NCBI GenBank assembly: GCA_003510435.1
Contig: DOMK01000001.1
Location: 26,604-90,603 of the forward strand
Source: Candidatus Magasanikiibacteriota bacterium
Lineage (GTDB): Bacteria > Patescibacteriota > Patescibacteriia > Magasanikbacterales > UBA922
DNA length: 64,000 nt
Direction of reading: 5' to 3'
The first letter of the stretch is position 1. Each line of letters opens with the position of its first letter. The translations under genes were made by a program, and so were the position numbers. The notes under the pieces are model-generated. The model did no database searches, was not told the origin of the DNA, and worked only from the letters and a program-made list of their open reading frames with translations. This document shows positions 6,591 through 61,348 of this stretch, in pieces.

Positions 6591-8198
6591 TTAGATTAAT
6601 TTGGAATTATCCCTAATTTCTTTCATAACTAATTCTGGAATGCGGTTTTCTAATAAAACTACTGAACCACTATTTTTAATATTTTTTATATAAGTTAGTA
6701 ATTTTACCGGTTCAAAAATTTCTTTAATTTCTAAACGATATTTTTGACTTAGAGACCCTTCAGTGAGAGGTTTGACAAAATCAGGCGTAATTATAACTAG
6801 CTCATCGGTACTATAAGAGATTTCTCCGCCAATTTTTTCGTGGATTTCATTACTTTTTTCTCCCAATTCTAACATGCCTCGAGTAATTACAATTCTCTTA
6901 CGTTCATTTTCAAAATTAGTAATATAATCTAAAGCCGCTTTAAAACCTTCGGGATTGGAATTATAGCTGTCATCAATAATATCACAATTGCCATATTTGA
7001 AAATATGAATAGTTTGCGGTAGATTTTTTATAACACCTTTAATCTCTTCCTCTGTCATTCCTAAATAACGAGCTACTAATGTGCATGGTAGAACATTCAT
7101 GGTATTGTGACTACCACGTAAGTTTGAGTCTATTTGAATTTCTACATTTTGACAAATCACGACGACTTTACCACCTTCAGTATTTTTTTCTATACTCTTT
7201 ACCAAGATAGTTGGTTTATGTTCTTCTTCTGTACCAAAGGTCATTACTTGACAATTTAATTCATTTAAAAATTCCCGACAATATGAATTGTCGCTATTAG
7301 TAATAGCTAAGCCATCTTTTGGTAGAGACCTGAATAATTCATATTTGGCCTTTTGGGTTTTTTTAATATTACCAAATAGCGCTATGTGCTGTTCATTGAT
7401 GGCAGTCAAGATACCAATTTTTGGTTTTACCATATCGCAAATCAATTTTATTTCTCCTTCGGCATAAGCACCCATTTCTACTATAAAAATATCTGTATTA
7501 GAAAAATTAGTTTTTAAAATAAATTTGGCTATGCCAATTTCGGTATTAACATGTTTAGGCGTACTTATAACATTAAATTTACTTTTTAAAATATGATCCA
7601 AAAAGATTTTTACTGTCGTTTTGCCATAACTGCCAGTAATACCGATTATTTTTAAATTTTTATATTGGCTAATTTTTTTTCTAGCGCGATTAATTAATAT
7701 TTTTTTTATTAAATCAGTCATTAGATTAAAAGCATAAACTATTAAACCTAAAATAAAAATTCTTGTCATCATTAATATTAATAAAGCATCCCAATCGTGT
7801 GATTTAAATAATAAACTTACTTCTAGTAAGATTGGGATTGAGATTAATAATAAAGATTTTAGAGTAATAGCTGGCTTAATAAATTTTTTTCTTTTAAATA
7901 TTTTATGTATATCATGGATGAAATTAATAGCCAAGATAGCCAAGATAACTATTTTTTGGATCTCAATGTTCAAAGGTAGAAATAAGGCGACCATTATTAA
8001 AAAGGCCCGATGGACAATGTTAAATTGAAAAGTAAAATGTTTACCTTGCTCAGTACTCAAAAAATCACGAAATCTATCCCAGCGATATTCTTTAAGTTGG
8101 AAAAAATACACAAAATAGCTATAATCCGAGATAGCTGAAAAAATCCAGAGAATAAAAATTATAGTATTAATATCAGAAAACATATTATTAATTAACAA
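6591..8198 (-). CDS. murF: UDP-MurNAc-tripeptide--D-Ala-D-Ala ligase (MurF) with ~170-aa N-terminal polytopic membrane extension
   Basis: Mur ligase P-loop IIGITGSYGKTTVK and ATP-grasp-like body (FIVEMGAYAEGEI ... ILTAINEQHIALFG). N-terminal 170 aa are hydrophobic helices. Confidence 0.75.
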   Translation of the reverse strand: MLINNMFSDINTIIFILWIFSAISDYSYFVYFFQLKEYRWDRFRDFLSTEQGKHFTFQFNIVHRAFLIMVALFLPLNIEIQKIVILAILAINFIHDIHKIFKRKKFIKPAITLKSLLLISIPILLEVSLLFKSHDWDALLILMMTRIFILGLIVYAFNLMTDLIKKILINRARKKISQYKNLKIIGITGSYGKTTVKIFLDHILKSKFNVISTPKHVNTEIGIAKFILKTNFSNTDIFIVEMGAYAEGEIKLICDMVKPKIGILTAINEQHIALFGNIKKTQKAKYELFRSLPKDGLAITNSDNSYCREFLNELNCQVMTFGTEEEHKPTILVKSIEKNTEGGKVVVICQNVEIQIDSNLRGSHNTMNVLPCTLVARYLGMTEEEIKGVIKNLPQTIHIFKYGNCDIIDDSYNSNPEGFKAALDYITNFENERKRIVITRGMLELGEKSNEIHEKIGGEISYSTDELVIITPDFVKPLTEGSLSQKYRLEIKEIFEPVKLLTYIKNIKNSGSVVLLENRIPELVMKEIRDNSKLI

Positions 8199-9012
8199 AA
8201 TTTTTAATTATTTCTAATAATTTTTCTTTTGTCTGTAAGTGTAGTCCGTGTCTAGCATTTTTAATTATTTCTAATTTTGAATTCTTGATTAGTTTGTTCA
8301 ATTTATAAGCATCAGACACTGGCAAATAACCATCCATGGTACCCCAGACAATTAAAGTCGGTACTGTAATTTTATTAGCCTCTTCTCCTCTATCTTGACG
8401 GATAATGTTTTTAAAAATTTCCCGTTTGATTCCAGATGTGTCGTGATAATCTTTGGCACCAATGGCTTTATGAAAAATATCTTCGGCCCAGAGAGAGCCT
8501 TTTTCTATCCACGGAATTTTAAAAATTAATTTACCAAATTTTGCGCCCGCGTTAAAAATTACACGTCTGAAAGTTTTCTTTGGTCGAAACACAGCCGGCG
8601 CAGTTAAAATTAATTTATCAATCATATCTGGATATTTACTAGCAAAAACTGTGGCGACTTGACCGCCGAAACTGTGACCGAGTAATACCACGTCATTCTG
8701 AGCGGAGCGGAGCGGAGTCGAAGAATCCCCTTGTTTGTACACAAAAAAATGGGATCCTTCGACTTCACTGCGGCTCACAAGCTCACCTTCGTTTCGCTCA
8801 GGATGAAGTAGTGATTCGATTTTATTTTTTACAAATTCAACATAATCCTCTACTCCCCAGACTTTATCTGGACATGGTTCATCACCAAAGCAAGGTAATT
8901 CAATAATTTGAATATCAAAATCATTACTGGCTAATTCAGCAAATTCGTTCCAAGTCGCTTTGTTTCCTCCCCAACCGGGAAGGATGATTAATTTTGATTT
9001 TAAATTATTCAT
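8188..9012 (-). CDS. alpha/beta-fold hydrolase carrying an in-frame palindromic-element insertion
   Basis: Nucleophile elbow LLGHSFGG. The 40-aa stretch LHPERNEGELVSRSEVEGSHFFVYKQGDSSTPLRSAQNDV is encoded by the repeat at 8692-8816. Confidence 0.65.
   Translation of the reverse strand: MNNLKSKLIILPGWGGNKATWNEFAELASNDFDIQIIELPCFGDEPCPDKVWGVEDYVEFVKNKIESLLHPERNEGELVSRSEVEGSHFFVYKQGDSSTPLRSAQNDVVLLGHSFGGQVATVFASKYPDMIDKLILTAPAVFRPKKTFRRVIFNAGAKFGKLIFKIPWIEKGSLWAEDIFHKAIGAKDYHDTSGIKREIFKNIIRQDRGEEANKITVPTLIVWGTMDGYLPVSDAYKLNKLIKNSKLEIIKNARHGLHLQTKEKLLEIIKNFVN
8692..8816. repeat. family-A palindromic element (GTCATYCTGAGCGGAGCGGAGCGGAGTCGAAG...CGCTCAGGATGA), inserted in frame
   Basis: Terminal inverted repeats gtcattctgagcg/cgctcaggatga and inner gtcgaagaatcccc/gggatccttcgac. 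Near-identical left half at 44340-44432. Confidence 0.7.
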
Positions 9013-13458: not shown

Positions 13459-13550
13459 ACACGGAAATAAGGAATTAAAGGATTATACGGATTTTTTATT
13501 ATCATATTTTTTCCGTGTGATCCTTTATCTCCGTATCTCAGTGTTATACC
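13458..13550. repeat. family-D hairpin element (ACACGGAAATAAGGA...GGATTATACGG...TCCGTGTGATCCTTTATCTCCGT)
   Basis: Internal inverted repeats. Paralogous copies at 13952-13990, 14394-14440 and 32293-32338. Confidence 0.5.
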
Positions 13551-17180: not shown

Positions 17181-17244
17181 GTACAATAGTATTATAACAG
17201 AGTTCAAACATGAGTCAAGTTATTATCCACACTTGTCATAAAAA

Positions 17245-17327
17245 TACAATATACACGTAACAAAATACAAGTGAGTCCTGCAAATATGGTTTAATTTAAA
17301 AAATTGTATCTTGTTACGTGTATATTG
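17245..17327. repeat. long hairpin: 16-17-bp perfect inverted repeat CAATATACACGTAACAA / TTGTTACGTGTATATTG around a ~45-nt loop
   Basis: Read directly; resembles the empty stems of the IVS-like cassettes. Confidence 0.55.
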
Positions 17328-17335
17328 TGTATTGT

Positions 17336-21776: not shown

Positions 21777-21878
21777 AATATATACAACATACAATATACA
21801 TGGAATAATATACAAAAAATATATATCAAAATACAAATTGTATTTTGATCCATGTATATTGAATTTTAATTTTTATAT

Positions 21879-24930: not shown

Positions 24931-27900
24931 TCACAATTGTCTAAATTCACAAATTTCCTTAAAATCACAATACTGACAAACATGTTTGTTTGGTGTGGCT
25001 GTAAAATCATTGGATTTAATTTGAGTAATTGTCTTAAGAATTTTTTCTTGTAATTTTTCTAGATCTTTAGCTTCACCAATAAAGGACGTTTTTATATTAT
25101 CATTGACATAATAAAAAGTTAGCTGGCCCACGGGACCAATGTTTCTATATTCAGGTAGAGTCTGAGTCGCGATTTGATAAATCAAAAGTTGTTGTTTGTC
25201 CTCGGTTGTTAAAGTTTCTTTGGACTTGCCAGTTTTGTAATCAATAATTTCTAAACTACCATCCGCTACTTTGTCTATTCTGTCAATTCTACCATGTACA
25301 ATGTAGTTACCTACTTTAACCTTGAACCACCCTTCCAATGATACAGGTACAGTCCACTTGCCATCTTCTGAAGAATAAAATATTTTCAAAATTTCTTTGC
25401 CTTTGGCATAGTATTTTTCCCTTTGTTCACGACTATTGTACCAGTCAGAAGCCCAATTTTTTTCATACATTTCCAATAATTCTTTTTCACTCGGAACTAT
25501 TATCTCCCCAGTATCTGATTTTTTTGTTTCTACTGGTAGACCAAACAAAGACGCTTGCTTGACACTATTTAATTCTTGAATTTTATTATAAAAATCCTGC
25601 AAAGTATTGTGAATGGTATTTCCAAAGCTAAAACTGGCACTGCCTTTCATGGGGATTTTTAAAACATGCGCTAGTTTGTATTGATAAGGACAACGTTCGT
25701 AGGAGCTGATTTGGGAGAAAGAGAACTTGTTGGGTGTTTCGTAAATTAACTCCTCGCCTACTAGAGGAAGTTTAGGAGAAGTCATTTTTAAATCCAAAAT
25801 TTGTTTTTTATCCAGACCCCCTCCAACTCCCCCTGATAGGGGGAGGGCATCAGACAGTTCTGCTAAAAATCTACTAATTTTCTTTTTTCTTGTTCCACCA
25901 TAATCTTCGGCACTGGTTAAAAATAGTTTTTCTTTTGCTCTTGTACAGGCAACATAAAATAAGCGTCGCTCTTCGGAATAATGAAAATCATCACTAGGTA
26001 AATTATCCTTGACTAGCTCATCGGGCAATTCCAAATTACCGCCTTTTTTTCTGGTAGGAAATCTTTCTTCAACTAAATTTACTACAAAAACATATTTATA
26101 TTCCAAACCTTTTGCCCCATGGACTGTAATAATATTAACTGAATCTGGTGTATCTTCTGGCTGGTAAATTTTTCCACCGTCACCGGATTCAATAATATTA
26201 TTAAAATGTTCTACAAATTCTAAGACTTTGCAATCGGGTGTAATTTGTTCAAAAGTTTTAATTAAATCAAAAAGTTGTCTAAGGTAATTTATTTGCCGAA
26301 TAATTTCTCTGTCGCCATTGGTTTCGCCATGAGTCAAGTAAGTTAAATATCCACTATTTTCTAAAAAATTGTATAAAACAGCGGTTGGTCTTTCATATCG
26401 CGCCTGCTTCATACCACTGTGAATAGTTTCTAAAATTTTACTAGCAATTTTTTGTCCGCTAGCAGAAATGTCAAATTCCACTCCTCGTTTTAAAATTTCG
26501 TAATAACTAATAGATTTCTGTTTGGCTCTAGCGGTAATTTTTTGCATGTCATTTTCATCCATTGCCCAGGCTGGCATACGTAAAAGTCGATACATGGCTC
26601 GGTCATCATAAACATGGGTAAGTAATTGAAAAAAAGCTAGGCAATTTAATACAATAGCCTGTCTATAAAGGCCAGATGAGGCCAAATACTCATATGGAAT
26701 ATTAGTCTGCTCTAAAGCGTGAATAAAGGGCTCTACGTGCGAGTTAGCCCTGACTAAAATGGCAAAATCATCCCATGATATTGATTTCACTGATTGTAAT
26801 TTGATTTCACTGATTTTTTTGATTACTTCCTGAACTTCATCATCTAAAGTTTGACAATGTATGTGTTCAATTTCAGTTTTGATGGTATTTTTAGCAATTA
26901 GTTTCTTATCAATTTTTAATTTTACTTCAAGGCGATCAGGATTATTATTTTGAATACTTTTATAACTTAGATCTAAAATTTCTTGACCAGAACGATAATT
27001 TTCATTCAAAACAATTTCTTTGGCATTTTTAAAATCTTCTTTAAAATGCATAATGACTGAAACGTTTGATCCACGGAAACTATAAATACTTTGGTCATCA
27101 TCCCCTACTACTGTTAGTTGACAATTCTGAGGCAAAGCCGAAGAATCCCGCTGTTTATCGCTTGAACCACAGGATCCTTCATCACTTCGTTCTTCAGGAT
27201 TAGCTAATAATTTTATTAATTGATATTGTGCCCAATTTACATCTTGAAATTCATCTACCAAAATATAGGTGAATCTGTCTTGCAAAGTTTTTAAAATATT
27301 TGGTCGATCTTTTAATAATTTGACAGTATAAAAAATCAAATCCCCAAAATCTAAATAACCATTATCCAAAAGTAATTGATTATAAGTATGATAAGCATTG
27401 GCGAGCTCTGTTTGACGATTTTTATCTTGGATATTAACTTCGTCTTTATCCATTTTTACATTTTCCACATATTCCAAATATTCAGTGGTAGAAACTAATT
27501 CATCTTTGGCTTTGGAAAAATGATTCAAAAGCGAATGAATCATAGACATGGGACTACCAAGCGGACGGTAATAATCTAGATTGAAATCGTACAAATGTTT
27601 TTTTACCAAGAGCCAAGCATCAGTGTCAGTAAGAAGTTTGAAACGTGATGGCAAACCAATTTCCAAACCATATTCCTCAAGAATTTTTTGACAAAAAGCA
27701 TGAAAAGTAGAGATTTGTAAATCTGTGTATCCAATATCCAAAATTTCATCCACTCTTTCTACCATTTCGCCAGCGGCTTTTTCTGTAAAAGTTAAGGCCA
27801 AAATATTTTCTGGCTTGGCTAATTTTTGATCAACCAAATAAGCAATCTTTTGGGTGATTACTGTGGTTTTGCCTGTACCTGCTCCGGCCACGATTAAAAG

Positions 27901-27960
27901 TGGACCAGTGGTATATTCTATGGCTTGTTTTTGTTGATTGTTTAGATTATATTCAGACAT
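24931..27960 (-). CDS. UvrD/PcrA-type SF1 helicase fused to a C-terminal RecB/Cas4-like PD-(D/E)xK nuclease with Cys cluster (AddA-like)
   Basis: Walker A AGAGTGKTTV, helicase motifs, C-terminal GRIDRIDKVADGSLEIIDYKTGKS + CPYQY ... CQYCDFKEIC. Two in-frame repeat insertions (27135-27200; 25816-25850). Confidence 0.8.
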   Translation of the reverse strand: MSEYNLNNQQKQAIEYTTGPLLIVAGAGTGKTTVITQKIAYLVDQKLAKPENILALTFTEKAAGEMVERVDEILDIGYTDLQISTFHAFCQKILEEYGLEIGLPSRFKLLTDTDAWLLVKKHLYDFNLDYYRPLGSPMSMIHSLLNHFSKAKDELVSTTEYLEYVENVKMDKDEVNIQDKNRQTELANAYHTYNQLLLDNGYLDFGDLIFYTVKLLKDRPNILKTLQDRFTYILVDEFQDVNWAQYQLIKLLANPEERSDEGSCGSSDKQRDSSALPQNCQLTVVGDDDQSIYSFRGSNVSVIMHFKEDFKNAKEIVLNENYRSGQEILDLSYKSIQNNNPDRLEVKLKIDKKLIAKNTIKTEIEHIHCQTLDDEVQEVIKKISEIKLQSVKSISWDDFAILVRANSHVEPFIHALEQTNIPYEYLASSGLYRQAIVLNCLAFFQLLTHVYDDRAMYRLLRMPAWAMDENDMQKITARAKQKSISYYEILKRGVEFDISASGQKIASKILETIHSGMKQARYERPTAVLYNFLENSGYLTYLTHGETNGDREIIRQINYLRQLFDLIKTFEQITPDCKVLEFVEHFNNIIESGDGGKIYQPEDTPDSVNIITVHGAKGLEYKYVFVVNLVEERFPTRKKGGNLELPDELVKDNLPSDDFHYSEERRLFYVACTRAKEKLFLTSAEDYGGTRKKKISRFLAELSDALPLSGGVGGGLDKKQILDLKMTSPKLPLVGEELIYETPNKFSFSQISSYERCPYQYKLAHVLKIPMKGSASFSFGNTIHNTLQDFYNKIQELNSVKQASLFGLPVETKKSDTGEIIVPSEKELLEMYEKNWASDWYNSREQREKYYAKGKEILKIFYSSEDGKWTVPVSLEGWFKVKVGNYIVHGRIDRIDKVADGSLEIIDYKTGKSKETLTTEDKQQLLIYQIATQTLPEYRNIGPVGQLTFYYVNDNIKTSFIGEAKDLEKLQEKILKTITQIKSNDFTATPNKHVCQYCDFKEICEFRQL

Positions 27961-27992: not shown

Positions 27993-28021
27993 TTGACAAA
28001 GGTGGTAGTATATGATATTTT
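27993..28021 (+). promoter_or_regulatory. sigma70-type promoter TTGACA-N17-TGaTATTTT (extended -10) reading into the GC-rich island
   Basis: ttgaca at 27993-27998, 17-nt spacer, TG at 28013-14, tatttt at 28016-28021. Confidence 0.45.
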
Positions 28022-28029
28022 ATACAGTT

Positions 28030-28260
28030 CAGTATTATAGGCGAGAGGTCTGTAAGTTTTTGCTTATAGGCCCTTCTCCTAATCGTCGGGAGAGGCGTGC
28101 AAGAGCACGTATAAGTCAGCTGAATGCCGGGGTGTCGGCATGGAAAAACATCCCAAGAGGGGTGGCTGACAGGGATTGTACCCAGACGATAGTCCAAGAG
28201 GACTAGGGCATTGTACTAGTCGTTTAGTCAACGACTGGTGTCTCCAAGCGGAGATATACA
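28030..28260 (+). other. GC-rich ~230-nt leader with multiple predicted stem-loops (possible cis-regulatory RNA or ncRNA) upstream of the island ORF
   Basis: Local hairpins such as cccttctcctaatcgtcgggagagg, gccggggtgtcggc, agtcaacgact; composition jumps from very AT-rich to GC-rich exactly here. Confidence 0.3.
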
Positions 28261-29196
28261 ATGAATTCCACGACTAAACTGCGGAGAATGACGATGAAGC
28301 GTTGCTTGTCAGAGCAGTTCAACATCCTGATGGATGAATTGGCCTCCATTGGTATGGCTGGCCTCTTCTGCCTCATCATCGGGATGGCCAAGAGCAAGTC
28401 GCAATTGGCCAGGTTCCACAACGAACTCAAGCCCAACCAGCGTCTCGTGCGTGGAGATTATATCATGCTCGAGGACTGGTGGGAGGCCTCGTATGAAAAG
28501 GCCAGAGGAGAACTCACTGAAGTGGCTAGAGAGAAGTTGCAAGAAGTGATTCTTCTCTCCTATCGCAACGAGCACAGTGCTGCGAATCTGAGCCACTACT
28601 ACGAACGGAAAATTAACGAGGAACGTTGGAGTAGAGAACATCCGAAAACCCCGCTTGCAACTTCTAGCGTCAACCTCGTGCTCTCTTGCCCCGAACGTGA
28701 CGGGCATGGCTACCACCACTTTCGCGCGTTCATGTTTAATGTAGAATTTGAAGTCAGTTGTACTTTTCTGGATAGCACACTACTAGTTCATATGTGCATC
28801 AAGAGAAATAAACTGACCGAAAATCTCGTACACAGGATTCTGACGTCCAAGCTGGTTAATGCCAGTTTCGGACATACAGGAGTGTATGTAAATAGTGGTG
28901 ATGAGCTGACCTTCAGGTTCGATCTCGGGGCTGATATAGGTAGGCGCTTGAAGGAGATGATCTCGGCATTTGATAAATCCGAGGGCGCTCACCGACGTGC
29001 TGACGTAGTGGCCATGGACACTTTTGCACATGAGGTTGGAAGAAACCTCATTGACGTCTGTGACCTTGAGCTGGATGGGCTCTACGCTGTAGTGCTGTTT
29101 GTCGCAGATGACCCACGTTGTCTGCAGTCAACGGTATTCGAGGATGGCGCACCGCACGCCAGGCATCGGGTCTGGTGCCATCGCACCAACGCCTAA
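28261..29196 (+). CDS. hypothetical protein (311 aa) encoded on a compositionally foreign GC-rich island; no recognisable domain
   Basis: Long ORF with GC-rich codon usage unlike all neighbours. Lies between a consensus promoter and two intrinsic terminators. Opposite-strand ORFs here look like GC-composition artefacts. Confidence 0.55.
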   Translation: MNSTTKLRRMTMKRCLSEQFNILMDELASIGMAGLFCLIIGMAKSKSQLARFHNELKPNQRLVRGDYIMLEDWWEASYEKARGELTEVAREKLQEVILLSYRNEHSAANLSHYYERKINEERWSREHPKTPLATSSVNLVLSCPERDGHGYHHFRAFMFNVEFEVSCTFLDSTLLVHMCIKRNKLTENLVHRILTSKLVNASFGHTGVYVNSGDELTFRFDLGADIGRRLKEMISAFDKSEGAHRRADVVAMDTFAHEVGRNLIDVCDLELDGLYAVVLFVADDPRCLQSTVFEDGAPHARHRVWCHRTNA

Positions 29197-29235
29197 GACC
29201 ACAGAAGACTTTACAACTCGGAGGATGTGAAGTGA

Positions 29236-29306
29236 CACGGGCGACCTATGACACCCCACAGGTCGCCCGTTCAAAAAAACAGATATTGTTAAATGTCTGT
29301 TTTTTA
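29236..29306 (+). terminator. tandem intrinsic terminators (ACGGGCGACC...GGTCGCCCGT then AAAAAAACAGA...TCTGTTTTTT)
   Basis: Two perfect hairpins, the second followed by a T-run, immediately 3' of the island ORF. Confidence 0.65.
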
Positions 29307-31775: not shown

Positions 31776-32257
31776 AAAGTTGATTAATAAATTATAAATT
31801 AAGATGATGGTATTATACTATAATTAACTCAAAAGAAACAATATTCGTGGGGATAAAAAAACACTCACCAATCTCCTTGAACTAATTCCATAATATAGAA
31901 TCAATTCAAGTGCGGTGAGTGTTTTTTACACTACCCCAACCCACCATCCCACTGGATAGCGGGGTTGGCAGCTCTTCCACAACTAATGATGGTTCCGGTC
32001 TAGACGACCGGGTAGACCAACGTGTGGTCGGGGAAGAACACTTTCTTTTGTACCATCCCCTCCGACATCTCCACCCAACCTGTGGCGTTGAACTGATGAT
32101 GACCTTCTTGGGTCAACAACAGTTTCTCATAAATTGTTCCATCTGGGTGTTCACCCTGACGAAACTTGCCGTTGATAGGCAATTGACCAAAGCTCATATC
32201 CATGAATAAACCATACGGTAGTTTGAGTAATATATTTTATATTAATTTTAAATTTTG

Positions 32258-32338: not shown

Positions 32339-32761
32339 AACATTCTTATACTTCTTTGCTACCCTCACCCGATTCATTTCCCTATCAATTACCGCTTGCA
32401 GACGAGCAAAGTTAACATCTTCGCCAGTTTTGGCCTTGGTCATTTCTTCTTCGGCTCGAACTCTGGCTTGTTCAGCGCGATCAATATCAATCGTATCCGC
32501 TCTTTCCACGTTATCAGCCAAAATAATTAATTCGTTATTACCTTTTATTTCTAAGAAACCACCAGAGACTGCAAAAGGATGTTCACCTTCTTTATCAACA
32601 ATTTTTAATTCTCCAGCTTTAAGAACAGACACAAGTGGAATGTGATTTGGTAAAACTGTTATTTCACCAGACATAGTTGGAATAGAAACTTGAAAAATTT
32701 CATTTTCATAAACAACTTTTTCTGGTGTGGCAATTTTGAATTTTAATATATTCGTGTTCAT
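32333..32761 (-). CDS. atpC: F-type ATP synthase epsilon subunit
   Basis: KIATPEKVVYENEIFQVSIPTMSGEITVLPNHIPLVSVLKAGEL. Confidence 0.85.
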   Translation of the reverse strand: MNTNILKFKIATPEKVVYENEIFQVSIPTMSGEITVLPNHIPLVSVLKAGELKIVDKEGEHPFAVSGGFLEIKGNNELIILADNVERADTIDIDRAEQARVRAEEEMTKAKTGEDVNFARLQAVIDREMNRVRVAKKYKNVK

Positions 32762-32762
32762 A

Positions 32763-32868
32763 ATCTCGAGCGAAGCGAGAGATCCCTTTTCATTGGGTTT
32801 AACTTCGCTATATTTTAAGTATTGTTTAATGTTTTGGAAAGGGATTCCTCACCCTTCGGGATTCGGAA
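32763..32868. repeat. family-B palindromic element (~105 bp; CTCGAGCGAAGCGAGAGATCCCTTTT...AAAGGGATTCCTCACCCTTCGGGATTCGGA) between atpD and atpC
   Basis: Near-identical copy at 37411-37520; diverged copy at 45721-45835. Confidence 0.65.
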
Positions 32869-34254
<1,386 letters not shown>

Positions 34255-37008: not shown

Positions 37009-37401
37009 CTAATTTAGTGAATTTTTAAGTAATTTTAGTTGTGTTTTTAAACTTCCATCCAAAATTTTATCTTCAGTTTTGACTGACACACCACCAAGTA
37101 AATTTGTATCAATAGTTTCAATCGCTTCTACTTGATTACCAAAAATTGATTTAATTTTTTCTAAAGTATTTTTATCTAATTTTCTAGCTGACTTAACTTC
37201 TATCTCTATTACCCCAGCCTGTTTTTTGGCGTATTTTTCAAATTCTTTAATAATATTGTCAGATTGTTTTAATTTTTGATTAGCAACTAAAATAGTGACA
37301 AACTTTTTTAAAGCATTGTTTAATTTTTCGCCTTTAAGTTCTTTTGTGCTATCATACAAGGCTTCGGCGTATTGTTTGTTGCTAATTTTTTTCTTTGACA
37401 T
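37009..37401 (-). CDS. atpH: F-type ATP synthase delta (OSCP) subunit
   Basis: Helical N-domain and C-terminal LLGGVSVKTEDKILDGSLKTQL. Start moved to MSKKKIS because upstream codons are repeat-derived. Confidence 0.7.
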   Translation of the reverse strand: MSKKKISNKQYAEALYDSTKELKGEKLNNALKKFVTILVANQKLKQSDNIIKEFEKYAKKQAGVIEIEVKSARKLDKNTLEKIKSIFGNQVEAIETIDTNLLGGVSVKTEDKILDGSLKTQLKLLKNSLN

Positions 37402-37410
37402 AATCTCGAG

Positions 37411-37520
37411 CCAAAGCGAGAGATCCCTTTTCATTGGGTTTAACTTCGCTTTATTTTAAATATTGTTTAATGTGTTGGAAAGGGATTCCTCTCCGTCAGC
37501 TGACGGATCGGAATGAACGA
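37411..37520. repeat. family-B palindromic element between atpF and atpH; supplies the last codons of atpF
   Basis: taatctcgagccaaagcgagagatcccttttcattgggtttaacttcgctttattttaaatattgtttaatgtgttggaaagggattcctc... Confidence 0.65.
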
Positions 37521-38083: not shown

Positions 38084-38103
38084 ATTGTATATTTATAAGA
38101 GTA

Positions 38104-38160
38104 ATAGGGAGTTAGGGCTGGAGGCGGGTAAATATTTTTTCACATCTAGTCCTAATTCCC
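38104..38160. repeat. family-C REP-like palindrome (ATAGGGAGTTAGGGCTGGAGGCG...CATCTAGTCCTAATTCCC)
   Basis: See 24868-24922. Confidence 0.55.
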
Positions 38161-38221
38161 AACTACTATTTATTTTAAATAATCTTATTCATCCGGATCA
38201 AAATTGACCCGGAAAGTAAAA

Positions 38222-38488: not shown

Positions 38489-38607
38489 TTACCTCGCGGA
38501 ATGATAGCAATTAATTAATAATAAAATTCAATATACATGCCTGCCTGCCGGTAGGCAGGGATCAAAATATAAATTGTATCGTGTTATGTGTATGTTGAAT
38601 TTTGTTA

Positions 38608-39417
38608 TTAATGTTCCTCTGCTCCATGTGGAGCGCTAGTGGCTACTGTCAAATATACAATTGTTAACATGGAAAATACCGCCGCTTGAATCAAGCCGAC
38701 TAATAATTCTAATAACATAAATGGTGTCGGTACCAAAGCTGCTACCAAAGCAGAAATTACAGAAATTAAAACTTCACCAGCAAAAATATTTCCAAATAAC
38801 CGAAGGGATAAAGAAACCACTTTAGCAATTTCAGACATGATCTCAATTAAACCAACTGCAAATTCAATCAAGGCAGTAAAAACAGCAATCGCGCCATCAG
38901 CAATGCCATGTTTAAACTGAGCAAAACTTTTAATAAAATTTTTAATTTGAAAAAATTTACCTAAATGAGTAAAGACTCCAATCGCAATAAAAGCATAAAC
39001 ATGAGAACCAATCACTGAGACTAAAGCCATAGCTAAAGTAAGATTCAAATCAGTATTAGCTGGACGCAAGAGCATATTATGACCAACAGTAATACTACCC
39101 GTACCTGGCAAAAGACCTAGCCAATTGGATAATAAGACGAAAAAGAAAATAGAACCGACAATTGGTAAAAATTTGACAGTTTTTTTTCTGTTACCTGTGA
39201 CACCGTCGAAATAACCGAGAACAGCTTCCAAAAAATATTCACACCAATTTTGTAATTTTCCTGGACGAAGTCTAATGGCTCGTTTGAGAACAATACCCAA
39301 TACCAAAAAAATAATAATGGCAATCCAAGCATTAATCATGGTATTAGTAATGTTTATATTACCAATATGAAAAACAACTTCTGGAGCTAAGGGTGGAATG
39401 TGAATTTCACTGGACAT
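38608..39417 (-). CDS. atpB: F-type ATP synthase subunit a
   Basis: 5-6 TM helices; conserved arginine helix region LSLRLFGNIFAGEV. Confidence 0.85.
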   Translation of the reverse strand: MSSEIHIPPLAPEVVFHIGNINITNTMINAWIAIIIFLVLGIVLKRAIRLRPGKLQNWCEYFLEAVLGYFDGVTGNRKKTVKFLPIVGSIFFFVLLSNWLGLLPGTGSITVGHNMLLRPANTDLNLTLAMALVSVIGSHVYAFIAIGVFTHLGKFFQIKNFIKSFAQFKHGIADGAIAVFTALIEFAVGLIEIMSEIAKVVSLSLRLFGNIFAGEVLISVISALVAALVPTPFMLLELLVGLIQAAVFSMLTIVYLTVATSAPHGAEEH

Positions 39418-39516
39418 AAATTCTTTTTTGTCACCCTGAATTTATTTCAGGGTCTTTTATATATTTTATTATCTTTTTTGAGAAAGATGCTGAAATAAAT
39501 TCAGCATGACAGTGTT

Positions 39517-43991: not shown

Positions 43992-44732
43992 CTACTTACT
44001 GATTACTATTACAAACTCCCCTTTTTCTGAAATATTCATCGCCAATATTTCTTTAATTGTCCCGCGATAAATTGTTTCAAATTTTTTAGTTAATTCACGA
44101 CACACACACATTTGTCTGTCTTCTTCTAAAACTTCAGCCAATTCTCCTAAACATTTTTTTATTCTGTGATTTGATTCATAAAATGCGACTGTGTATTCTG
44201 CCTTCGCCACATCAGCAAAAAAAGTTTTACGACCTTTTTTGTGTGGCGGAAAACCCATGAATACAAATTTGTCGGTTGGAAAGCCTGAAATACTTAAAGC
44301 CGTTATTACTGCACTTGGTCCTGGAATTGGCTCTACTGTGTCATCCTGAGCGGAGCGGAGCGGAGTCGAAGGATCCCCTTCTTCAACAGGGGGATATTTC
44401 GACTTCGCCCTCCGGGCTTCGCTCAATATGACGTTTATGAGTTGGTTTCCTGGATCTGATATACCTGGCGTACCAGCATCAGTTACTAATGCCAAATTTT
44501 TACCTTGTTCCAACAATTCCTTGATCTCACGAACTTTCTTTTCTTCACTATGTTGATGATAAGAAATAGTTTTGGTTTTAATCTCAAAATGATTCAACAA
44601 ATTTAGTGTTACTCTAGTATCTTCACACAAAATAAAATCCACACTTTTTAATATTTTAAGTGCACGTAAAGTGATGTCGCCTAGATTACCAATTGGCGTG
44701 GCGACTATGTATAATTTACCTGTATTTTCCAT
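43992..44732 (-). CDS. rsmI: 16S rRNA (cytidine1402-2'-O)-methyltransferase RsmI, carrying an in-frame family-A element
   Basis: LYIVATPIGNLGDITLRALKIL ... ILCEDTRVT. Inserted RRAKSKYPPVEEGDPSTPLRSAQDDTVEPIPGPS is encoded by the repeat. Confidence 0.85.
   Translation of the reverse strand: MENTGKLYIVATPIGNLGDITLRALKILKSVDFILCEDTRVTLNLLNHFEIKTKTISYHQHSEEKKVREIKELLEQGKNLALVTDAGTPGISDPGNQLINVILSEARRAKSKYPPVEEGDPSTPLRSAQDDTVEPIPGPSAVITALSISGFPTDKFVFMGFPPHKKGRKTFFADVAKAEYTVAFYESNHRIKKCLGELAEVLEEDRQMCVCRELTKKFETIYRGTIKEILAMNISEKGEFVIVISK
44340..44432. repeat. family-A palindromic element inside rsmI
   Basis: gtcatcctgagcggagcggagcggagtcgaaggatcccc...gggggatatttcgacttcgccctccgggcttcgctcaatatgac. 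Confidence 0.7.
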
Positions 44733-45418: not shown

Positions 45419-45724
45419 TTATAATTTAGTAAGTTCATCAATGTTTAAATCTAGTTCTTTTGTATTTGCGTCAGAAAAATCAGTCGGATTCTCAATTTCT
45501 GTCATCACATTTTCTGGAGTAATATTATGAATAACTATATCATCTACTCGGATATTAGGTGATCTATGACAATGTCCAGTACAAGTACAAATATCTAAAC
45601 AGATTTTATCATTACATTCACCTTTTTGCAAACCAGTCTCCATTTCAATTTTGTGCAATATTGCATCCGAACCTTTGGCAGAACAAGTTATACCTTTGCA
45701 GATTTTTATTTGTTTCATAATCAT
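45419..45724 (-). CDS. thioredoxin-like [2Fe-2S] ferredoxin (NuoE-like fold)
   Basis: ICKGITCSAKGSDAI ... CLDICTCTGHC spacing. Start moved to an internal Met because the upstream 39 codons are encoded by repeat 45721-45835. Confidence 0.5.
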   Translation of the reverse strand: MIMKQIKICKGITCSAKGSDAILHKIEMETGLQKGECNDKICLDICTCTGHCHRSPNIRVDDIVIHNITPENVMTEIENPTDFSDANTKELDLNIDELTKL

Positions 45725-45835
45725 TCCGAGTGTAGCGAGGAATCCCTTTTCCTTGGGGTTAACATCGGTTTTATTTAATGCTTTTTTTAATGAATCAAAA
45801 AGGGATCCCTCACCCTTCGGGATTCGGGATGACGG
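45721..45835. repeat. family-B palindromic element (diverged copy)
   Basis: tcattccgagtgtagcgaggaatcccttttccttggggttaacatcgg...aaaagggatccctcacccttcgggattcgggatga. Confidence 0.6.
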
Positions 45836-48832: not shown

Positions 48833-48844
48833 GAGAAAATAAAA

Positions 48845-48910
48845 AGGAGTTAGGAATTGGGTATAGAGGCGAGAAAAATTATCCCGCATCTAGTCCTTAC
48901 TCCTAACTCC
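48845..48910. repeat. family-C REP-like palindrome
   Basis: ggagttaggaattgggtatagaggcg...cgcatctagtccttactcctaactcc. Confidence 0.55.
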
Positions 48911-48926
48911 TTCTAATAATAAGGAT

Positions 48927-53699: not shown

Positions 53700-53708
53700 A
53701 TTTTATTG

Positions 53709-53848
53709 TTCCTCCCCTATAAGGGGAGGCGGACACGAAGTGCCAGTGGGGTCGTTTGACTCTCCAAATTCTCACTTGTTATTCTGAATTAAAATGTTTT
53801 GTGACACGAATGACCCCCTCCTACCTCCCCCTCATAGGGGGAGAGCTA
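53709..53848. repeat. family-F palindromic element (CCTCCCCTATAAGGGGAGG ... CCTCCCCCTCATAGGGGGAG)
   Basis: Two G/C palindromes around an AT-rich core; the right end supplies the last codons of the downstream oxidoreductase gene. Related in-frame copy at 25816-25850. Confidence 0.55.
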
Positions 53849-55088
53849 ATGAATTTCCCGCTGTATACCCAGTACCCCAAGCGACGGTTAGATTATAACC
53901 CCCAGTAATACCATCAATATCCAAAATCTCTCCGGCAAAGTATAAATTATCTATTAATTTTGATTGCATAGTCTTCGGATCAATTTCTTTTAAATCAACC
54001 CCGCCACTCGTGACAATGGCTTGCTCAAATCCCATATCCCCCACCACTGTTAATTTTAAATCATGTAAAATTTCTAGTATTTTTTTTCTTTCTTCCTTGC
54101 TAATACTGTTAGCTAATTTTTCTGGATAAATATCGGCCAAGTCCAACATAATGCCAACAAATTTACTTGGTAGAAAATTATCCCAAATATTTTTAATAGT
54201 TTTTTTACCATTATCATGAAAGATTTTTTGTAAAAATAAATCTAATTGTTTTTCATTTTGTTTGGGTTTAAAATTTATTCTTAATTCTACATTGCCATTT
54301 TTTCTGGCAGTAATAACCTGCTTACTCAAATTCAAAATCATCGGACCACTAATACCAAAATGAGTAAATAAAATATCACCAATTTTTTTAGTAATTTTCT
54401 TATTATTTTGATAAAGACTGACTTCTATATCACTAAAACTTAAACCTTGTAAATCTTTTACAAAAGTTTCTTTTATTTTTAATGGTACAAGCGACGGAAT
54501 GGTTGGTGTAATCGTATGACCAAGATTTTTGGCAAATTTAAATCCATCACCAGTCGAGCCAGTACCAGGATAAGATAATCCCCCAGTAGCAATTAACAAA
54601 TTGGTTGTATTAAATAATTCTCCATTTTCAAGTTCAACGCCAGTAATATTAGTTTTGTCTTTAAAAATATTTTTTACTTGAGCTAAAGTTTTAATTTCTA
54701 CTTTATTATTTTTTAAATATTTTATTAGAGAATTAACAATCTCTTGGGACGAATCACTCCTAGGAAAAACCCGTCTATCATCTTCAATTTTTAATTTAAC
54801 ACCCAAATTTTCAAAGAAATTCATAATTTCCTGTGGAGGAAAATTGTTTAGAGCAGAAAATAAAAAAGCGCCATTATCACCATAGGCTTTGATTAGTTCT
54901 CTAATATTTGATTCATCGTGAGTCAGGTTGCAACGCGTATGTCCAGAAATCAAAATTTTTCTGCCTAATTCTTTATTTTTTTCCAATAACAAAACTTTGG
55001 CTCCGCGTTCACTGGCTATACCAGCCGCCACCATACCAGCTGCGCCACCACCGATGACGATTAGATCATATTGATTTTTCATACACAT
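53832..55088 (-). CDS. HI0933/BaiN-family NAD(FAD)-utilising dehydrogenase
   Basis: YDLIVIGGGAAGMVAAGIASERGAKVLLLEKN dinucleotide-binding motif; 418 aa. Confidence 0.75.
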   Translation of the reverse strand: MCMKNQYDLIVIGGGAAGMVAAGIASERGAKVLLLEKNKELGRKILISGHTRCNLTHDESNIRELIKAYGDNGAFLFSALNNFPPQEIMNFFENLGVKLKIEDDRRVFPRSDSSQEIVNSLIKYLKNNKVEIKTLAQVKNIFKDKTNITGVELENGELFNTTNLLIATGGLSYPGTGSTGDGFKFAKNLGHTITPTIPSLVPLKIKETFVKDLQGLSFSDIEVSLYQNNKKITKKIGDILFTHFGISGPMILNLSKQVITARKNGNVELRINFKPKQNEKQLDLFLQKIFHDNGKKTIKNIWDNFLPSKFVGIMLDLADIYPEKLANSISKEERKKILEILHDLKLTVVGDMGFEQAIVTSGGVDLKEIDPKTMQSKLIDNLYFAGEILDIDGITGGYNLTVAWGTGYTAGNSLALPL

Positions 55089-60658: not shown

Positions 60659-60898
60659 ATCTAACTAATATAATTTGTGAAGATTTGTGATAATTTAGGT
60701 AATTTGAGTTCTATTTGAACATGGTTATTATACCACAAAGTTAGACTTTTAAATATTTTGTCAATGGCGTTGATTTTTAAAAAAACAAAAACCATCCTAC
60801 TCCCACGCAAATCTAAAATAATTTTAAACTTACGCGGACGGATGGCTTTTGAGTGGGAAAAAGAGCTATTGGAGAAAAACCAACCGTCAGCGGGTGAA

Positions 60899-61348
60899 TC
60901 ACCAGGAGCCGTGATACCTGCTGTCCGACTCCTGGGACACCTTGATGACCTGTTGTCGACTGATGACGACGAGCTGGAACATGTGGTGGCAGTTCGGACA
61001 CCTGATCGGCCCCGTGGTCGCGTTCGATAGCAACGAGACCTTCCTGCCACAGTCCTCGTGGGGGCACTGGACGCTGGCTTGCCCCGCGTGGATCTGCATG
61101 TCAGGAAGAGCCTTGGGCTTGGGCGTCGTGTCGGTCTTCTTGGACGCGGACGACAACGACTGGCAGTTGGGGCACAGCCCGTTGTGCTTGGTCGTGAGAC
61201 CGTTGCACTGAGGGCAACGCTCCATCTGCCCATCCTTGGTGCCGACGGCGTTGCACCGCTGGCACCAGTACTGATCGCCATGGTGCGGGTGAGGCACCAT
61301 GTGGTGGGGCTTGGCCCCTTTACACCCTTTCCAGAGACCCTTCTTCAT
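60899..61348 (-). CDS. His-rich, multi-CxxC zinc-ribbon protein on a GC-rich island
   Basis: 149 aa with CQRC ... CPQC ... CPNC ... CPHEDC ... CPNC. GC-rich codon usage unlike neighbours. The other long frames across this island are composition artefacts. Confidence 0.5.
   Translation of the reverse strand: MKKGLWKGCKGAKPHHMVPHPHHGDQYWCQRCNAVGTKDGQMERCPQCNGLTTKHNGLCPNCQSLSSASKKTDTTPKPKALPDMQIHAGQASVQCPHEDCGRKVSLLSNATTGPIRCPNCHHMFQLVVISRQQVIKVSQESDSRYHGSW

What the first reader, a model, noticed from the sequence alone, without database searches (positions are those of the whole stretch)
8692..8816. Palindromic ~120-bp element family A inserted in frame into conserved genes
The same element (terminal IR GTCATYCTGAGCG / CGCTCAGGATGA around GTCGAAGRATCCCC / GGGGATMYTTCGAC) lies inside three unrelated ORFs. 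These are the alpha/beta hydrolase (8692-8816), rsmI (44340-44432) and, in shorter form, the helicase (27135-27200). All keep the reading frame and add 25-40 residues with a shared ...STPLRSAQ(N/D)D... peptide. This recalls Rickettsia RPEs: selfish palindromes that survive by inserting into surface loops of proteins.
Basis: seen in the sequence. Interest (0 to 1): 0.7.

Follow-up and report, generated by a model that had tools for sequence, protein, structure and literature searches.

The report
Palindromic hairpin element inside conserved genes
A GC-rich, roughly 90-120-base palindromic repeat sits in frame inside three housekeeping genes of a groundwater Magasanikbacteria (CPR) genome, adding disordered loops to the proteins; the same repeat family turns up, almost identical in sequence, in several other bacterial phyla, so the "Rickettsia-style" colonisation of protein genes by palindromes is much more widespread than Rickettsia.

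Summary
Two near-consensus copies lie at 8692-8807 (alpha/beta hydrolase) and 44340-44432 (rsmI). A diverged sister-subfamily copy lies at about 27120-27203 (UvrD/AddB-type helicase). All three are in frame.

Most orthologues lack the inserts, so these are insertions. They fall in low-confidence coil between conserved secondary-structure elements.

The element is not homologous to Rickettsia RPEs but behaves like them. Its anatomy is REPIN-like: two inverted copies of a 27-40-nt hairpin unit, GTC-ATYCY-[GAGCG...GAGTCGA]-RGRAT-CC, around a variable spacer. The 5-bp stem inside each arm covaries strongly, more strictly than the pairing between arms.

An exact 24-mer of the arm occurs in Verrucomicrobiota, Dehalococcoidia, Acidobacteria, Oscillospiraceae, Bifidobacterium and CPR. 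In CPR and soil Verrucomicrobia it lies in frame in other housekeeping genes (RluD, TsaD, Dus, IscS, IspG, UvrC and others).

The rsmI loop is a hot spot that carries at least six different palindrome families in different orthologues.

No target-site duplication, transposase partner, Rfam family or publication was found. Best reading: a selfish REPIN/RPE-like mobile hairpin filtered by selection into permissive loops. Nucleotide-level conservation in the rsmI copy leaves some room for a functional role.

The parts
8692..8807 (-). Family-A copy 1 (116 nt) inside the alpha/beta-hydrolase gene. The long arm is 8692-8728 (GTCATTCTGAGCGGAGCGGAGCGGAGTCGAAGAATCC), the spacer is 8729-8751 and the second arm is 8752-8807. 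On the - strand it is translated as ...HPERNEGELVSRSEVEGSHFFVYKQGDSSTPLRSAQND...
   Evidence: arm HMM E = 2e-8 and 1.8e-6. In frame. Absent from most orthologues. Modelled as coil with pLDDT 46-50.
44340..44432 (-). Family-A copy 2 (93 nt = 31 codons) inside rsmI. The long arm is 44340-44376, the spacer is 44377-44391 and the second arm is 44392-44432. The second arm carries the ATATT/AATAT stem variant and a GCCCGGAGGGC apical insert. It is translated as VILSEARRAKSKYPPVEEGDPSTPLRSAQDD.
   Evidence: E = 1.7e-8 and 3.6e-5. It replaces the native loop DLRHKIENF of the insert-free relative L004. The PDB alignment is split at residues 103/133. pLDDT is 50-62.
27120..27203 (-). Diverged sister-subfamily copy inside the UvrD/PD-(D/E)XK helicase-nuclease gene, between motif II (DEFQD) and motif III (VVGDDDQ). 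The arms are 27124-27146 (ATTCT...AGAAT) and 27174-27200 (ATCCT...AGGAT); the GTCAT termini have eroded. It is translated as NPEERSDEGSCGSSDKQRDSSALPQN.
   Evidence: Shared only with the 90%-identical orthologue P0242/L038 and absent from P0243 and nearly all other orthologues.
8188..9012 (-). Host gene 1: alpha/beta hydrolase (BioH-like), 274 aa.
   Evidence: Pfam Abhydrolase_1/6 and Hydrolase_4. The identical protein occurs on 8 independently assembled contigs.
43992..44732 (-). Host gene 2: rsmI (16S rRNA C1402 2'-O-methyltransferase), 246 aa.
   Evidence: Pfam TP_methylase. TIGR00096 scores 233 bits in two stretches.
24931..27960 (-). Host gene 3: UvrD-type helicase fused to a PD-(D/E)XK nuclease, 1009 aa.
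   Evidence: Pfam UvrD-helicase, UvrD_C and PDDEXK_1.
32757..32872 (.). Related long-spacer member of the same superfamily. The arms are ATCTC..GAGAT and ATTCC..GGAAT. It lies between atpD and atpC, and its terminal CAT is the atpC start codon.
   Evidence: (weak arm hit, E = 0.016).
37399..37517 (.). Second long-spacer member, between two ATP-synthase genes. Its terminal CAT at 37399-37401 matches the start of a 130-aa OSCP-like gene.
   Evidence: The 130-aa OSCP orthologue is seen in L004.
45716..45835 (.). Third long-spacer member, immediately upstream of a 2Fe-2S thioredoxin-like gene. The arms are ATTCC..GGAAT and ATCCC..GGGAT.
   Evidence: (E = 8e-4). The 99-aa orthologue is seen in L004.

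Best explanation
Family A is a non-autonomous, GC-rich palindromic repeat of the REPIN / RPE type.

**Anatomy**
- Its unit is a 27-40-nt hairpin: GTC, then a 5-nt stem half (ATYCY), a conserved loop (GAGCG, 0-3 further GAGCG-like repeats, GAGTCGA), the complementary stem half (RGRAT), then CC.
- Two such units in inverted orientation flank a variable 15-90-nt spacer. The whole element can therefore also fold into one long hairpin ending in GTCAT...ATGAC.

**Spread and survival**
- The element spreads within genomes and, over long times, between lineages.
- In gene-dense genomes many landings are in coding DNA. Such a copy survives only under three conditions.
  1. It is read in one of the stop-free frames. 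Two of the three frames on each strand are open, giving VILSE.../HPER... at one end and ...SAQ(N/D)D/...LRMT at the other.
  2. The net length change is a multiple of three.
  3. The site is a structurally permissive surface loop or linker.
- It is then translated as a 22-38-residue disordered loop that the enzyme tolerates.
- Copies later erode by AT-biased substitution and internal deletion, or are replaced by fresh copies.

**Shown here:** insertion relative to orthologues; in-frame status; loop position; repeated independent insertions into the same loop; turnover; arm-level covariation; cross-phylum occurrence.

**Inferred:** mobility through a single-stranded hairpin intermediate handled by a hairpin-specific (HUH/Y1, RAYT-like) enzyme without target duplication; translation of the inserts; their near-neutrality.
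For: **Repeat family and palindrome**
- establish the repeat and its hairpin.

**Arm-level hairpin**
- The outer and inner 5-mers are perfectly complementary in 64 of 77 arms, across 7 variants. Shuffles give a mean of 15.2 and a maximum of 34 in 10,000.
- On 36 distinct arm types, 90.6% of cells pair against 76.2% when shuffled. There are 39 double-sided changes against 12.3, reached by 0 of 500 shuffles, and slid controls give 15-57%.
- Between-arm complementarity of the same 5-mers is perfect in only 6 of 34 elements.
- Single arms occur alone in an isolate genome, Bifidobacterium vespertilionis.

**Insertion rather than ancestral segment**
-.

**Loop position**
-.

**Independent insertions**
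- RsmI orthologues carry at least 6 different palindrome-derived peptide families, starting 3 to 13 residues after DPGNxLI.
- The hydrolase and helicase sites also carry other families in other orthologues.

**Decay and turnover**
- Internally deleted remnants occur in P0036 and P0004.
- The sister genome's hydrolase copy is unalignable (identity 0.36-0.5), although flanking third positions are 0.67 identical.

**Other in-frame hosts of the same family**
- CPR: RluD-like (two copies), TsaD, Dus and an ATE_C protein.
- Verrucomicrobia-like soil contigs: IscS (two orthologues), IspG, glycogen debranching enzyme and UvrC.

**Cross-phylum spread**
- The exact 24-mer is found in 27 genome loci and 40 metagenome loci.

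**Target duplication**
- No target-site duplication is visible at any copy.
Against: - No transposase partner was identified. ORFs between neighbouring copies are ordinary genes.
- The only RAYT-like gene found (L022) is flanked by a different, GTAG-type REP.
- The rsmI copy is more conserved than a neutral passenger should be. Third-codon identity is 0.77-0.89 in the element against 0.47-0.53 in the rest of rsmI, among four genomes.
- Near-identity of a 37-nt arm across phyla is unusual for REPINs, which are described as lineage-specific and vertically inherited (abstracts listed).
- No hit in viral contigs that could serve as a vector.
- Translation of the inserts is not demonstrated.
Confidence: 0.7

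Rival explanations
1. The hairpin unit is a functional nucleic-acid motif rather than merely selfish DNA. It would be a DNA or RNA hairpin bound by a conserved host or element-encoded protein, or a regulatory or mRNA-stabilising structure. On this view the intragenic copies are kept by selection at the nucleotide level.
For: - The loop sequence is conserved while the stem covaries, which is the classical signature of a constrained structure.
- A compensated stem variant (ATATT/AATAT) is kept in the rsmI copies of four genomes.
- Third-codon identity is 0.77-0.89 in the element against about 0.5 in the flanking rsmI.
- A GC-rich sequence is maintained in a 33% GC genome.
- The long-spacer relatives sit exactly in front of gene starts and share a conserved spacer.
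Against: - Presence among close relatives is patchy: P0006, at 80% identity, has no insert.
- Copies are seen decaying or internally deleted.
- Both orientations are used in coding regions.
- No Rfam family matches.
- The conservation could also come from a subfamily master copy or from gene conversion.
Confidence: 0.15
2. [quoted passage not shown] On this view it is an internally deleted IS whose terminal inverted repeats (GTCAT...) are bound by a DDE transposase supplied in trans.
For: - It has terminal inverted repeats, a small size, many copies and a variable interior.
- Prokaryotic MITEs are known to make in-frame fusions (review PMC10969869).
Against: - No target-site duplication at any of about 80 copies inspected.
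- Each arm is self-complementary and also occurs singly. A transposase-binding TIR model does not predict this.
- The element is GC-rich, whereas MITEs are typically AT-rich.
- No IS with these ends was seen in any fetched locus.
Confidence: 0.1
3. The segments are ancient, conserved parts of the three proteins, or lineage-specific functional loops. On this view they resemble each other only by chance or by composition.
For: Close relatives share the segment at the same site: P0002-P0004 for RsmI and P0242 for the helicase.
Against: - The majority of orthologues and the solved homologues lack the segments.
- The same DNA sequence occurs in unrelated genes, in intergenic DNA and in other phyla.
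- The similarity is at the DNA level and palindromic.
Confidence: 0.02
4. The palindromes are an assembly or binning artefact.
For: The data are MAG-derived. One 'Udaeobacter' contig (L018, GC 0.37) looks misbinned.
Against: - The identical hydrolase protein, with its insert, is found on 8 contigs from independent assemblies (Logan, JGI, ENA).
- Orthologous copies occur in four other MAGs.
- The family is present in an isolate genome (Bifidobacterium vespertilionis) and in chromosome-level Dehalococcoidia assemblies.
Confidence: 0.01

Closest known systems
Rickettsia palindromic elements (RPE-1 to RPE-10; Ogata et al. 2000, Science 290:347, as summarised in PMC10969869)
   Same: - A palindromic repeat of about 100-150 bp, present in many copies.
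- Inserted in frame into unrelated housekeeping genes.
- Encodes a recurrent peptide.
- Located where the protein fold tolerates it.
- The transposition mechanism is unknown.
   Different: - No sequence or peptide homology: no NCBIfam/TIGRFAM hit.
- GC-rich in an AT-rich host.
- Built as an inverted doublet of self-complementary hairpin units.
- Found in Patescibacteria and at least five other phyla rather than one genus.
- The same loop is hit repeatedly by different families.
REP / REPIN elements mobilised by RAYT (Y1/HUH) transposases (Bertels & Rainey 2011, PMC3116915; PMC3337134)
   Same: - The unit is a short imperfect palindrome.
- The mobile form is two units in inverted orientation around a spacer, which can fold into a long hairpin.
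- No target-site duplication.
- Single units occur as remnants.
- High copy number in some genomes: 3 copies per 8 kb in Chthoniobacterales loci.
   Different: - The conserved foot is GTCAT, not GTAG.
- No flanked RAYT gene was found.
- Copies are frequently intragenic and translated.
- The arm is almost identical across phyla, whereas REPIN-RAYT systems are described as vertically inherited and lineage-specific.
Prokaryotic MITEs that overlap ORFs (for example Coxiella QMITE1, intragenic ERIC, Anabaena MITEs; PMC5896051, PMC10969869)
   Same: Small non-autonomous repeats with inverted termini that can create in-frame fusions with host ORFs.
   Different: Those elements have direct repeats or target-site duplications, are usually AT-rich, and are species- or genus-restricted. 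Here there is no duplication, the element is GC-rich and the distribution is cross-phylum.

Membership tests
Rickettsia RPE families | Sequence or peptide homology to RPE consensus domains (TIGRFAM/NCBIfam RPE models). | tested here: not met
   An NCBIfam scan of the two whole proteins and the three insert peptides at E <= 10 gave no family on the inserts.
Rickettsia RPE families | Palindromic repeat inserted in frame in unrelated protein genes at structurally permissive positions. | tested here: met
Rickettsia RPE families | Host range limited to Rickettsia or Rickettsiales. | tested here: not met
   The host is Candidatus Magasanikbacteria. The family also occurs in Verrucomicrobiota, Dehalococcoidia, Acidobacteria, Firmicutes and Actinobacteria.
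REP / REPIN-RAYT | The unit (REP) is a short imperfect palindrome able to form its own hairpin. | tested here: met
   Within-arm 5-bp stem perfect in 64 of 77 arms, with 7 covarying variants. Covariation is reached by 0 of 500 shuffles.
REP / REPIN-RAYT | [quoted passage not shown] | tested here: met
   45 complete doublets were extracted, with spacers of 15-90 nt. The long hairpin has z = -5.4 and -6.5.
REP / REPIN-RAYT | Conserved GTAG tetranucleotide at the foot of the REP hairpin. | tested here: not met
   The foot is GTC-AT (GTCAT) in essentially all arms. A GTAG-type REP pair was seen only around the unrelated RAYT of L022.
REP / REPIN-RAYT | A cognate, usually single-copy RAYT (Y1_Tnp) gene flanked by the REPs. 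| tested here: inconclusive
   None was found in the 64-kb window or in about 80 loci of 1-20 kb. The methods were tblastn with remembered RAYT/IS200 sequences and Pfam on ORFs between copies. Whole genomes could not be searched.
REP / REPIN-RAYT | Extragenic location. | tested here: not met
   The three window copies and many others lie inside ORFs. In high-GC phyla most copies are intergenic.
MITE (IS-derived) | Terminal inverted repeats. | tested here: met
   GTCATYCYGAGCG / CGCTCRGRATGAC.
MITE (IS-derived) | Target-site duplication flanking the element. | tested here: not met
   No direct repeat flanks any copy inspected. The rsmI insertion is accompanied by loss of 27 nt of native sequence, not by a duplication.
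MITE (IS-derived) | A parent IS with the same termini and a transposase gene. | not testable with these tools
   No terminal pairs 0.3-4 kb apart enclosing a transposase were seen in the fetched loci. Collection-wide searches with long gaps are not possible.
Known structured RNA families (Rfam 15) | A match to a covariance model. | tested here: not met
   The window at gathering threshold gave 0 hits. Four element-bearing loci at E <= 1 gave only a chance miRNA-like hit, 30 bits against a gathering score of 80.

The most novel reading that the evidence does not exclude
One REP-like hairpin module, GTC-ATYCY-(GAGCG)n-GAGTCGA-RGRAT-CC, is kept almost letter-for-letter in at least six bacterial phyla. 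It would be either (a) the substrate of a still unidentified, horizontally spreading hairpin-specific mobilisation system, or (b) a host-exploited DNA/RNA structural signal under nucleotide-level selection.

In either case it colonises the surface loops of core enzymes (RsmI, UvrD-like helicase, IscS, IspG, TsaD, RluD, UvrC) in Patescibacteria and Verrucomicrobia. 'Protein-coding palindromes', long regarded as a Rickettsia peculiarity, would then be a general mode of protein-loop evolution. There would also be recurrent hot-spot loops that are re-invaded or overwritten by different palindrome families.
Probability: 0.3. Interest if true: 0.8.

Novelty: new variant of a known kind. Interest (0 to 1): 0.62.

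Why it matters
- In-frame palindromic 'selfish DNA' has been treated as a hallmark of Rickettsia. Here the same behaviour is shown for an unrelated element in the Candidate Phyla Radiation, and for the same family in soil Verrucomicrobia.
- This gives a concrete, searchable sequence model for finding such insertions in metagenomic proteins. There they inflate protein lengths, create spurious 'novel' loops and seed false homology between unrelated proteins.
- The arm-level covariation and the cross-phylum identity point to a specific, still unknown protein partner.
- The hot-spot loops give natural experiments on how much extra sequence conserved enzymes tolerate.

Tried and rejected
- **Rfam.** The window at gathering threshold and element-bearing loci at E <= 1 matched no family.
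- **tRNA/tmRNA.** None in the window.
- **RPE membership.** NCBIfam/TIGRFAM gave no hit on the inserts.
- **Literature.**
  - Searches by DNA termini and by insert peptides gave no relevant paper.
  - CPR plus palindrome terms also gave nothing relevant.
  - Only general RPE, MITE and REPIN papers came up.
- **Viral contigs.** The arm 24-mer gave 0 hits.
- **rsmI-specific arm variant.**
  - A metagenome scan for GAAGCCCNNAGGGCNAAGTCGAAATATC gave 0 hits.
  - I therefore could not decide whether that variant exists as a dispersed subfamily.
  - A similar GAGCCCGGAGGGCGGAG apical variant does occur in Bifidobacterium.
- **Search for a transposase.**
  - ORFs lying between neighbouring copies are ordinary genes: UvrC, HisRS, AspRS, AhpC and a pyridine-nucleotide oxidoreductase.
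It is flanked by GTAG-type REPs, not by family A.
- **Target-site duplication.** None was seen.
- **Strict hairpin scan.** My first scan (16-nt arms, at least 14 matches) was too strict and found almost nothing.
- **RNA-level reading from G-U pairs in the helicase copy.**
  - I considered this reading and dropped it.
  - In consensus elements the outer stem has T-G on one strand and the inner stem has G-T on the other, so no strand is favoured (reading).
Full report
**1. Source and context**

The window is about 33% GC. It matches a 171,568-nt groundwater metagenome contig assigned to Candidatus Magasanikbacteria (CPR/Patescibacteria). The hydrolase protein with its insert is found unchanged on 8 contigs from independent assemblies.

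Yes.
- **Copy 1** runs from GTCATTCTGAGCG at 8692 to CGCTCAGGATGAA at 8807, 116 nt.
- **Copy 2** spans 44340-44432, 93 nt.
- **Chance.** The terminal 13-mer occurs 4 times against 0.79 expected by chance.
- **Similarity.** The + strand left arms of the two copies agree at 39 of 41 positions.
- **Folding.** Both copies fold into long hairpins far better than shuffles: DNA z = -5.4 and -6.5, RNA z = -5.6 and -5.5.
- **Copy 3 (helicase)** is diverged.
  - Its GTCAT termini are eroded and its long hairpin is weak (z = 0 as + strand DNA, -2.45 as sense RNA).
  - An HMM of the arms does not detect it.
  - It aligns above the shuffle maximum to a sister subfamily, GTCATCCTGAACGAAGTGAAGGATCC, that sits in a Dus gene of another Magasanikbacterium.
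  - Its own orthologue in a sister genome is nearly identical.
  - Its real extent is about 27120-27203.
- **Host genes.** All three read through the element and have Pfam domains on both sides.

**3. Insertion or ancestral segment?**

Insertion, at all three sites.
- **RsmI.**
  - Of 120 relatives, lengths are bimodal: 219-226 aa without an insert and 239-269 aa with one.
  - The solved homologue 3kwp aligns to query residues 2-103 and 133-244, with 5 residues in place of 29.
  - The 80%-identical relative P0006 (locus L004) keeps the ancestral loop EDLRHKIENFK. At the DNA level the window copy replaces 27 nt of that loop with the 93-nt element.
- **Hydrolase.** Most relatives (233-240 aa) go straight from helix ...YVEFVKNKI to strand ...LLGHSFGG.
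- **Helicase.** Only the 90%-identical P0242 shares the 24-residue insert between motif II and VVGDDDQ. P0243 (75% identical) and almost all others lack it.

**4. Where in the fold?**

- **Hydrolase model** (mean pLDDT 84.6). The insert, residues about 75-107, is coil with pLDDT 46-50. It lies between helix 54-74 and strand 108-113, which precedes the nucleophile elbow.
- **RsmI model** (mean pLDDT 82.3). The first residues of the insert extend helix 94-112. Residues 113-140 are coil with pLDDT 50-62, in the linker between the two subdomains.

**5. Anatomy of the element**

I extracted 45 complete elements from the window and from loci fetched elsewhere. The architecture is:

GTC-ATYCY-GAGCG(GAGCG)0-3...GAGTCGA-RGRAT-CC(CG) / spacer of 15-90 nt / (CG)GG-ATYCY-TCGAC...CGCTC-RGRAT-GAC

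The unexpected point is that each arm is self-complementary.
- The 5-mer after GTC and the 5-mer before CC are perfect Watson-Crick partners in 64 of 77 arms.
- Seven covarying variants occur: ATCCT/AGGAT, ATTCT/AGAAT, ATCCC/GGGAT, ATTCC/GGAAT, ATATT/AATAT, ATTTC/GAAAT and ATCTC/GAGAT.
- Random re-pairing gives 15.2 on average and never more than 34 in 10,000 trials.
- The same 5-mers are perfectly complementary between arms in only 6 of 34 elements.
- On 36 distinct arm types the independent pair counter gives:
  - 90.6% of cells paired, against 76.2% shuffled;
  - 39 cells changed on both sides, against 12.3;
  - a covariation score of 0.495, against 0.213;
  - 0 of 500 shuffles reaching the observed values on each of these three measures;
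  - 15-57% pairing in slid registers.
- The odd ATATT and AATAT in the rsmI copy are such a compensated pair. Even the eroded helicase copy keeps ATTCT/AGAAT and ATCCT/AGGAT.
- Single arms occur alone in Bifidobacterium vespertilionis.

The element is therefore an inverted doublet of a REP-like hairpin unit, which is the definition of a REPIN (abstracts). No direct repeat flanks any copy.

**6. Distribution**

- An exact 24-mer of the long arm (about 0.03 matches expected by chance, my estimate from the collection size) hits 27 loci among species-representative genomes.
- The hosts are Chthoniobacterales/Udaeobacter and other Verrucomicrobiota, three chromosome-level Dehalococcoidia, Acidobacteria, Oscillospiraceae, an isolate Bifidobacterium, Moraniibacteriota and Magasanikbacteria.
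- It also hits 40 metagenome contigs, mostly from soil, with GC 0.51-0.64.
- Several loci carry 2-3 copies within 8 kb.
- There is no hit in viral contigs.

**7. In-frame insertion is general for this family**

- **CPR loci.** The hosts are a RluD-like pseudouridine synthase (two copies), TsaD, Dus and an ATE_C protein.
- **Verrucomicrobia-like contigs.**
  - The hosts are cysteine desulfurase (two orthologues, same site, different spacers), IspG, a glycogen debranching enzyme and a tRNA-synthetase-like fragment.
  - In a Verrucomicrobiae MAG the host is UvrC.
- **Split Pfam matches.** Pfam matches are split exactly at the inserts; for example Aminotran_5 breaks at residue 185.
- **Orientation.** Both orientations are used, giving ...STPLRSAQ(N/D)D or GHPERSGAESKDP....
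- **Open frames.** On each strand one of the three frames is closed by the TGA in TCTGAGCG. This explains the recurrent peptides (sequence reading).

**8. Hot-spot loops and turnover**

- **RsmI loop.**
  - Different orthologues carry clearly different palindrome-derived peptides at the loop: VILSEARR...SAQDD, VIASEAKQS...PRND, CHPEFISGS...ILKQVQHD, VIPAKAGIQ...DSRFRGND, VIPTE...ARDD and PLPRG...LPLERGG.
  - These begin 3 to 13 residues after DPGNxLI.
  - That fits repeated independent insertion into a permissive loop rather than a single exact target.
- **Hydrolase and helicase sites.** They show the same pattern.
- **Decay.** It is visible in P0036, which keeps only GTCATCCTGAGCGTGAGTCGAAGGGCTCAGGATGAC, and in P0004, which has an internal deletion.
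- **Turnover.**
  - The sister genome (third-position identity 0.67-0.70 in the host genes) has a hydrolase insert that is essentially unalignable to the window copy (identity 0.36-0.5).
  - It keeps only the inner AAGTCGAAAGATC...GGATCCTTCG core.
  - The window copy has a consensus-perfect long arm.
  - Either one lineage decayed much faster than neutral, or the site was re-invaded or overwritten.

**9. A complication**

- The rsmI copy is shared by four genomes (window, L035, L036, L037).
- It is far better conserved than the gene around it. Third-codon identity is 0.77-0.89 in the element and 0.86-1.00 in its 5' arm, against 0.47-0.53 in 215 flanking codons.
- Three explanations are possible: nucleotide-level selection on the hairpin, copying from a dispersed subfamily, or gene conversion.
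- My scan for that arm variant in metagenomes returned nothing, so this stays open. It is the main support for the 'functional motif' rival.

**10. Comparison with known systems**

- It works like Rickettsia RPEs but is not one of them: no RPE model hit, and a different host range.
- Structurally it meets the REP/REPIN definition, with three departures: the GTAG foot, extragenic location and lineage specificity. A cognate RAYT could not be found in the limited DNA available.
- It lacks the target duplications expected of IS-derived MITEs.
- No Rfam family matches.
- No paper in the searchable library mentions the sequence or its peptides, or describes such elements in CPR.

**11. Verdict**

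The finding is correct and its interpretation is essentially right. The element is a new, cross-phylum, REPIN-like relative-in-behaviour of RPEs.

The mechanism of spread is inferred (hairpin-specific, no duplication), not shown. Whether any copy has acquired a function is open.

Noticed in passing
window 32757-32872, 37399-37517, 45716-45835: Three copies of a long-spacer relative of the same superfamily share 82% column identity, including a conserved AT-rich spacer of about 60 nt. Each lies directly upstream of a - strand gene: atpC, an OSCP-like atpH and a 2Fe-2S thioredoxin-like gene. In each case the element's terminal CAT coincides with the gene's ATG, as if the element supplies the start codon and 5' leader. 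Related copies sit at other ATP-synthase junctions in sister genomes (L004 15140-15265; L035 near 19547 and 20690).
   Followed up: partly
RsmI orthologues P0001-P0120 (site equivalent to window 44340-44432): The helix-to-strand linker of RsmI is a hot spot. At least six unrelated-looking palindrome-derived peptide families occupy it in different Magasanikbacteria. All begin with VI/VV/CH... and end in ...(N/D)D, which implies shared GTCAT...ATGAC-type termini across families.
   Followed up: partly
L022 3373-6051 (Candidatus Udaeobacter MAG): A RecG ORF of 892 aa contains an in-frame Y1_Tnp (RAYT-like) domain (Pfam 26 bits, cut-off 23). The domain is flanked by GTAG-type REP hairpins (GTAGCGCACGCGTC... 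/ ...GACGCGTGCGCTAC). A whole REP-RAYT unit appears to be embedded in frame in a core helicase gene. This is a different REP class from family A.
   Followed up: partly
window 25799-25869 (inside the helicase gene); 53701-53778 and 53792-53906: Another GC-rich palindrome family (CCCCCTCC...CCCCCTGATAGGGGGAGGG; CCTCCCCTATAAGGGGAGG) is present. The copy in the helicase is translated as LPLSGGVGGGLD, in the variable linker between the helicase and nuclease domains. An orthologue (P0254) has a similar ALPLSGGA...GGGLE.
   Followed up: no
window 39429-39511: An intergenic palindrome of yet another family, TGTCACCCTGAATTTATTTCAGGG ... CTGAAATAAATTCAGCATGACA (29-nt arms, 86% complementary). This is the family whose peptide (CHPEF...ILKQVQHD) appears in some RsmI orthologues.
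   Followed up: no
window 13459-13544, 17241-17333, 21806-21868, 38514-38612; also 38097-38170 and 48839-48917: Two AT-rich inverted-repeat families recur in the window. One contains ...AAAATACAATATACACGTAACAAAATACAA / TTGTAT...; the other contains GGAGTTAGG.
   Followed up: no
window 31900-32125 (- strand): A GC-rich stretch (0.54) downstream of atpC folds strongly as RNA (-87 kcal/mol, z = -3.5, 0 of 200 shuffles as good). It has no Rfam match and no convincing ORF, so it may be an unannotated structured RNA.
   Followed up: partly
window 28000-29300 and 60860-61360: Two islands of much higher GC (0.49-0.54 and 0.60) sit in a 33% GC genome. The first holds a 311-aa ORF (28261-29196, +) with no obvious identity. 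The second holds a 149-aa Cys-rich ORF (60899-61348, -) with several CxxC pairs. Both may be foreign DNA.
   Followed up: no
L027 (Bifidobacterium vespertilionis RST16, isolate genome) 2242, 5998, 6105: Single family-A arms occur without an inverted partner. One has a GAGCCCGGAGGGCGGAG apical variant like the one in the window's rsmI copy. The hairpin unit therefore exists as a stand-alone REP in a high-GC actinobacterium.
   Followed up: partly
L018 (DATION010000002.1, labelled Candidatus Udaeobacter): This 233-kb contig has GC 0.37. It encodes a helicase 60% identical to the Magasanikbacteria one (P0284). It looks like a CPR contig misbinned into a Verrucomicrobia MAG.
   Followed up: no
Helicase orthologues P0266 (1373 aa) and P0354 (1336 aa): Two orthologues of the window helicase carry Hint/intein Pfam domains (PF01079, PF14890). 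The same gene is therefore also a host for inteins in related lineages.
   Followed up: no
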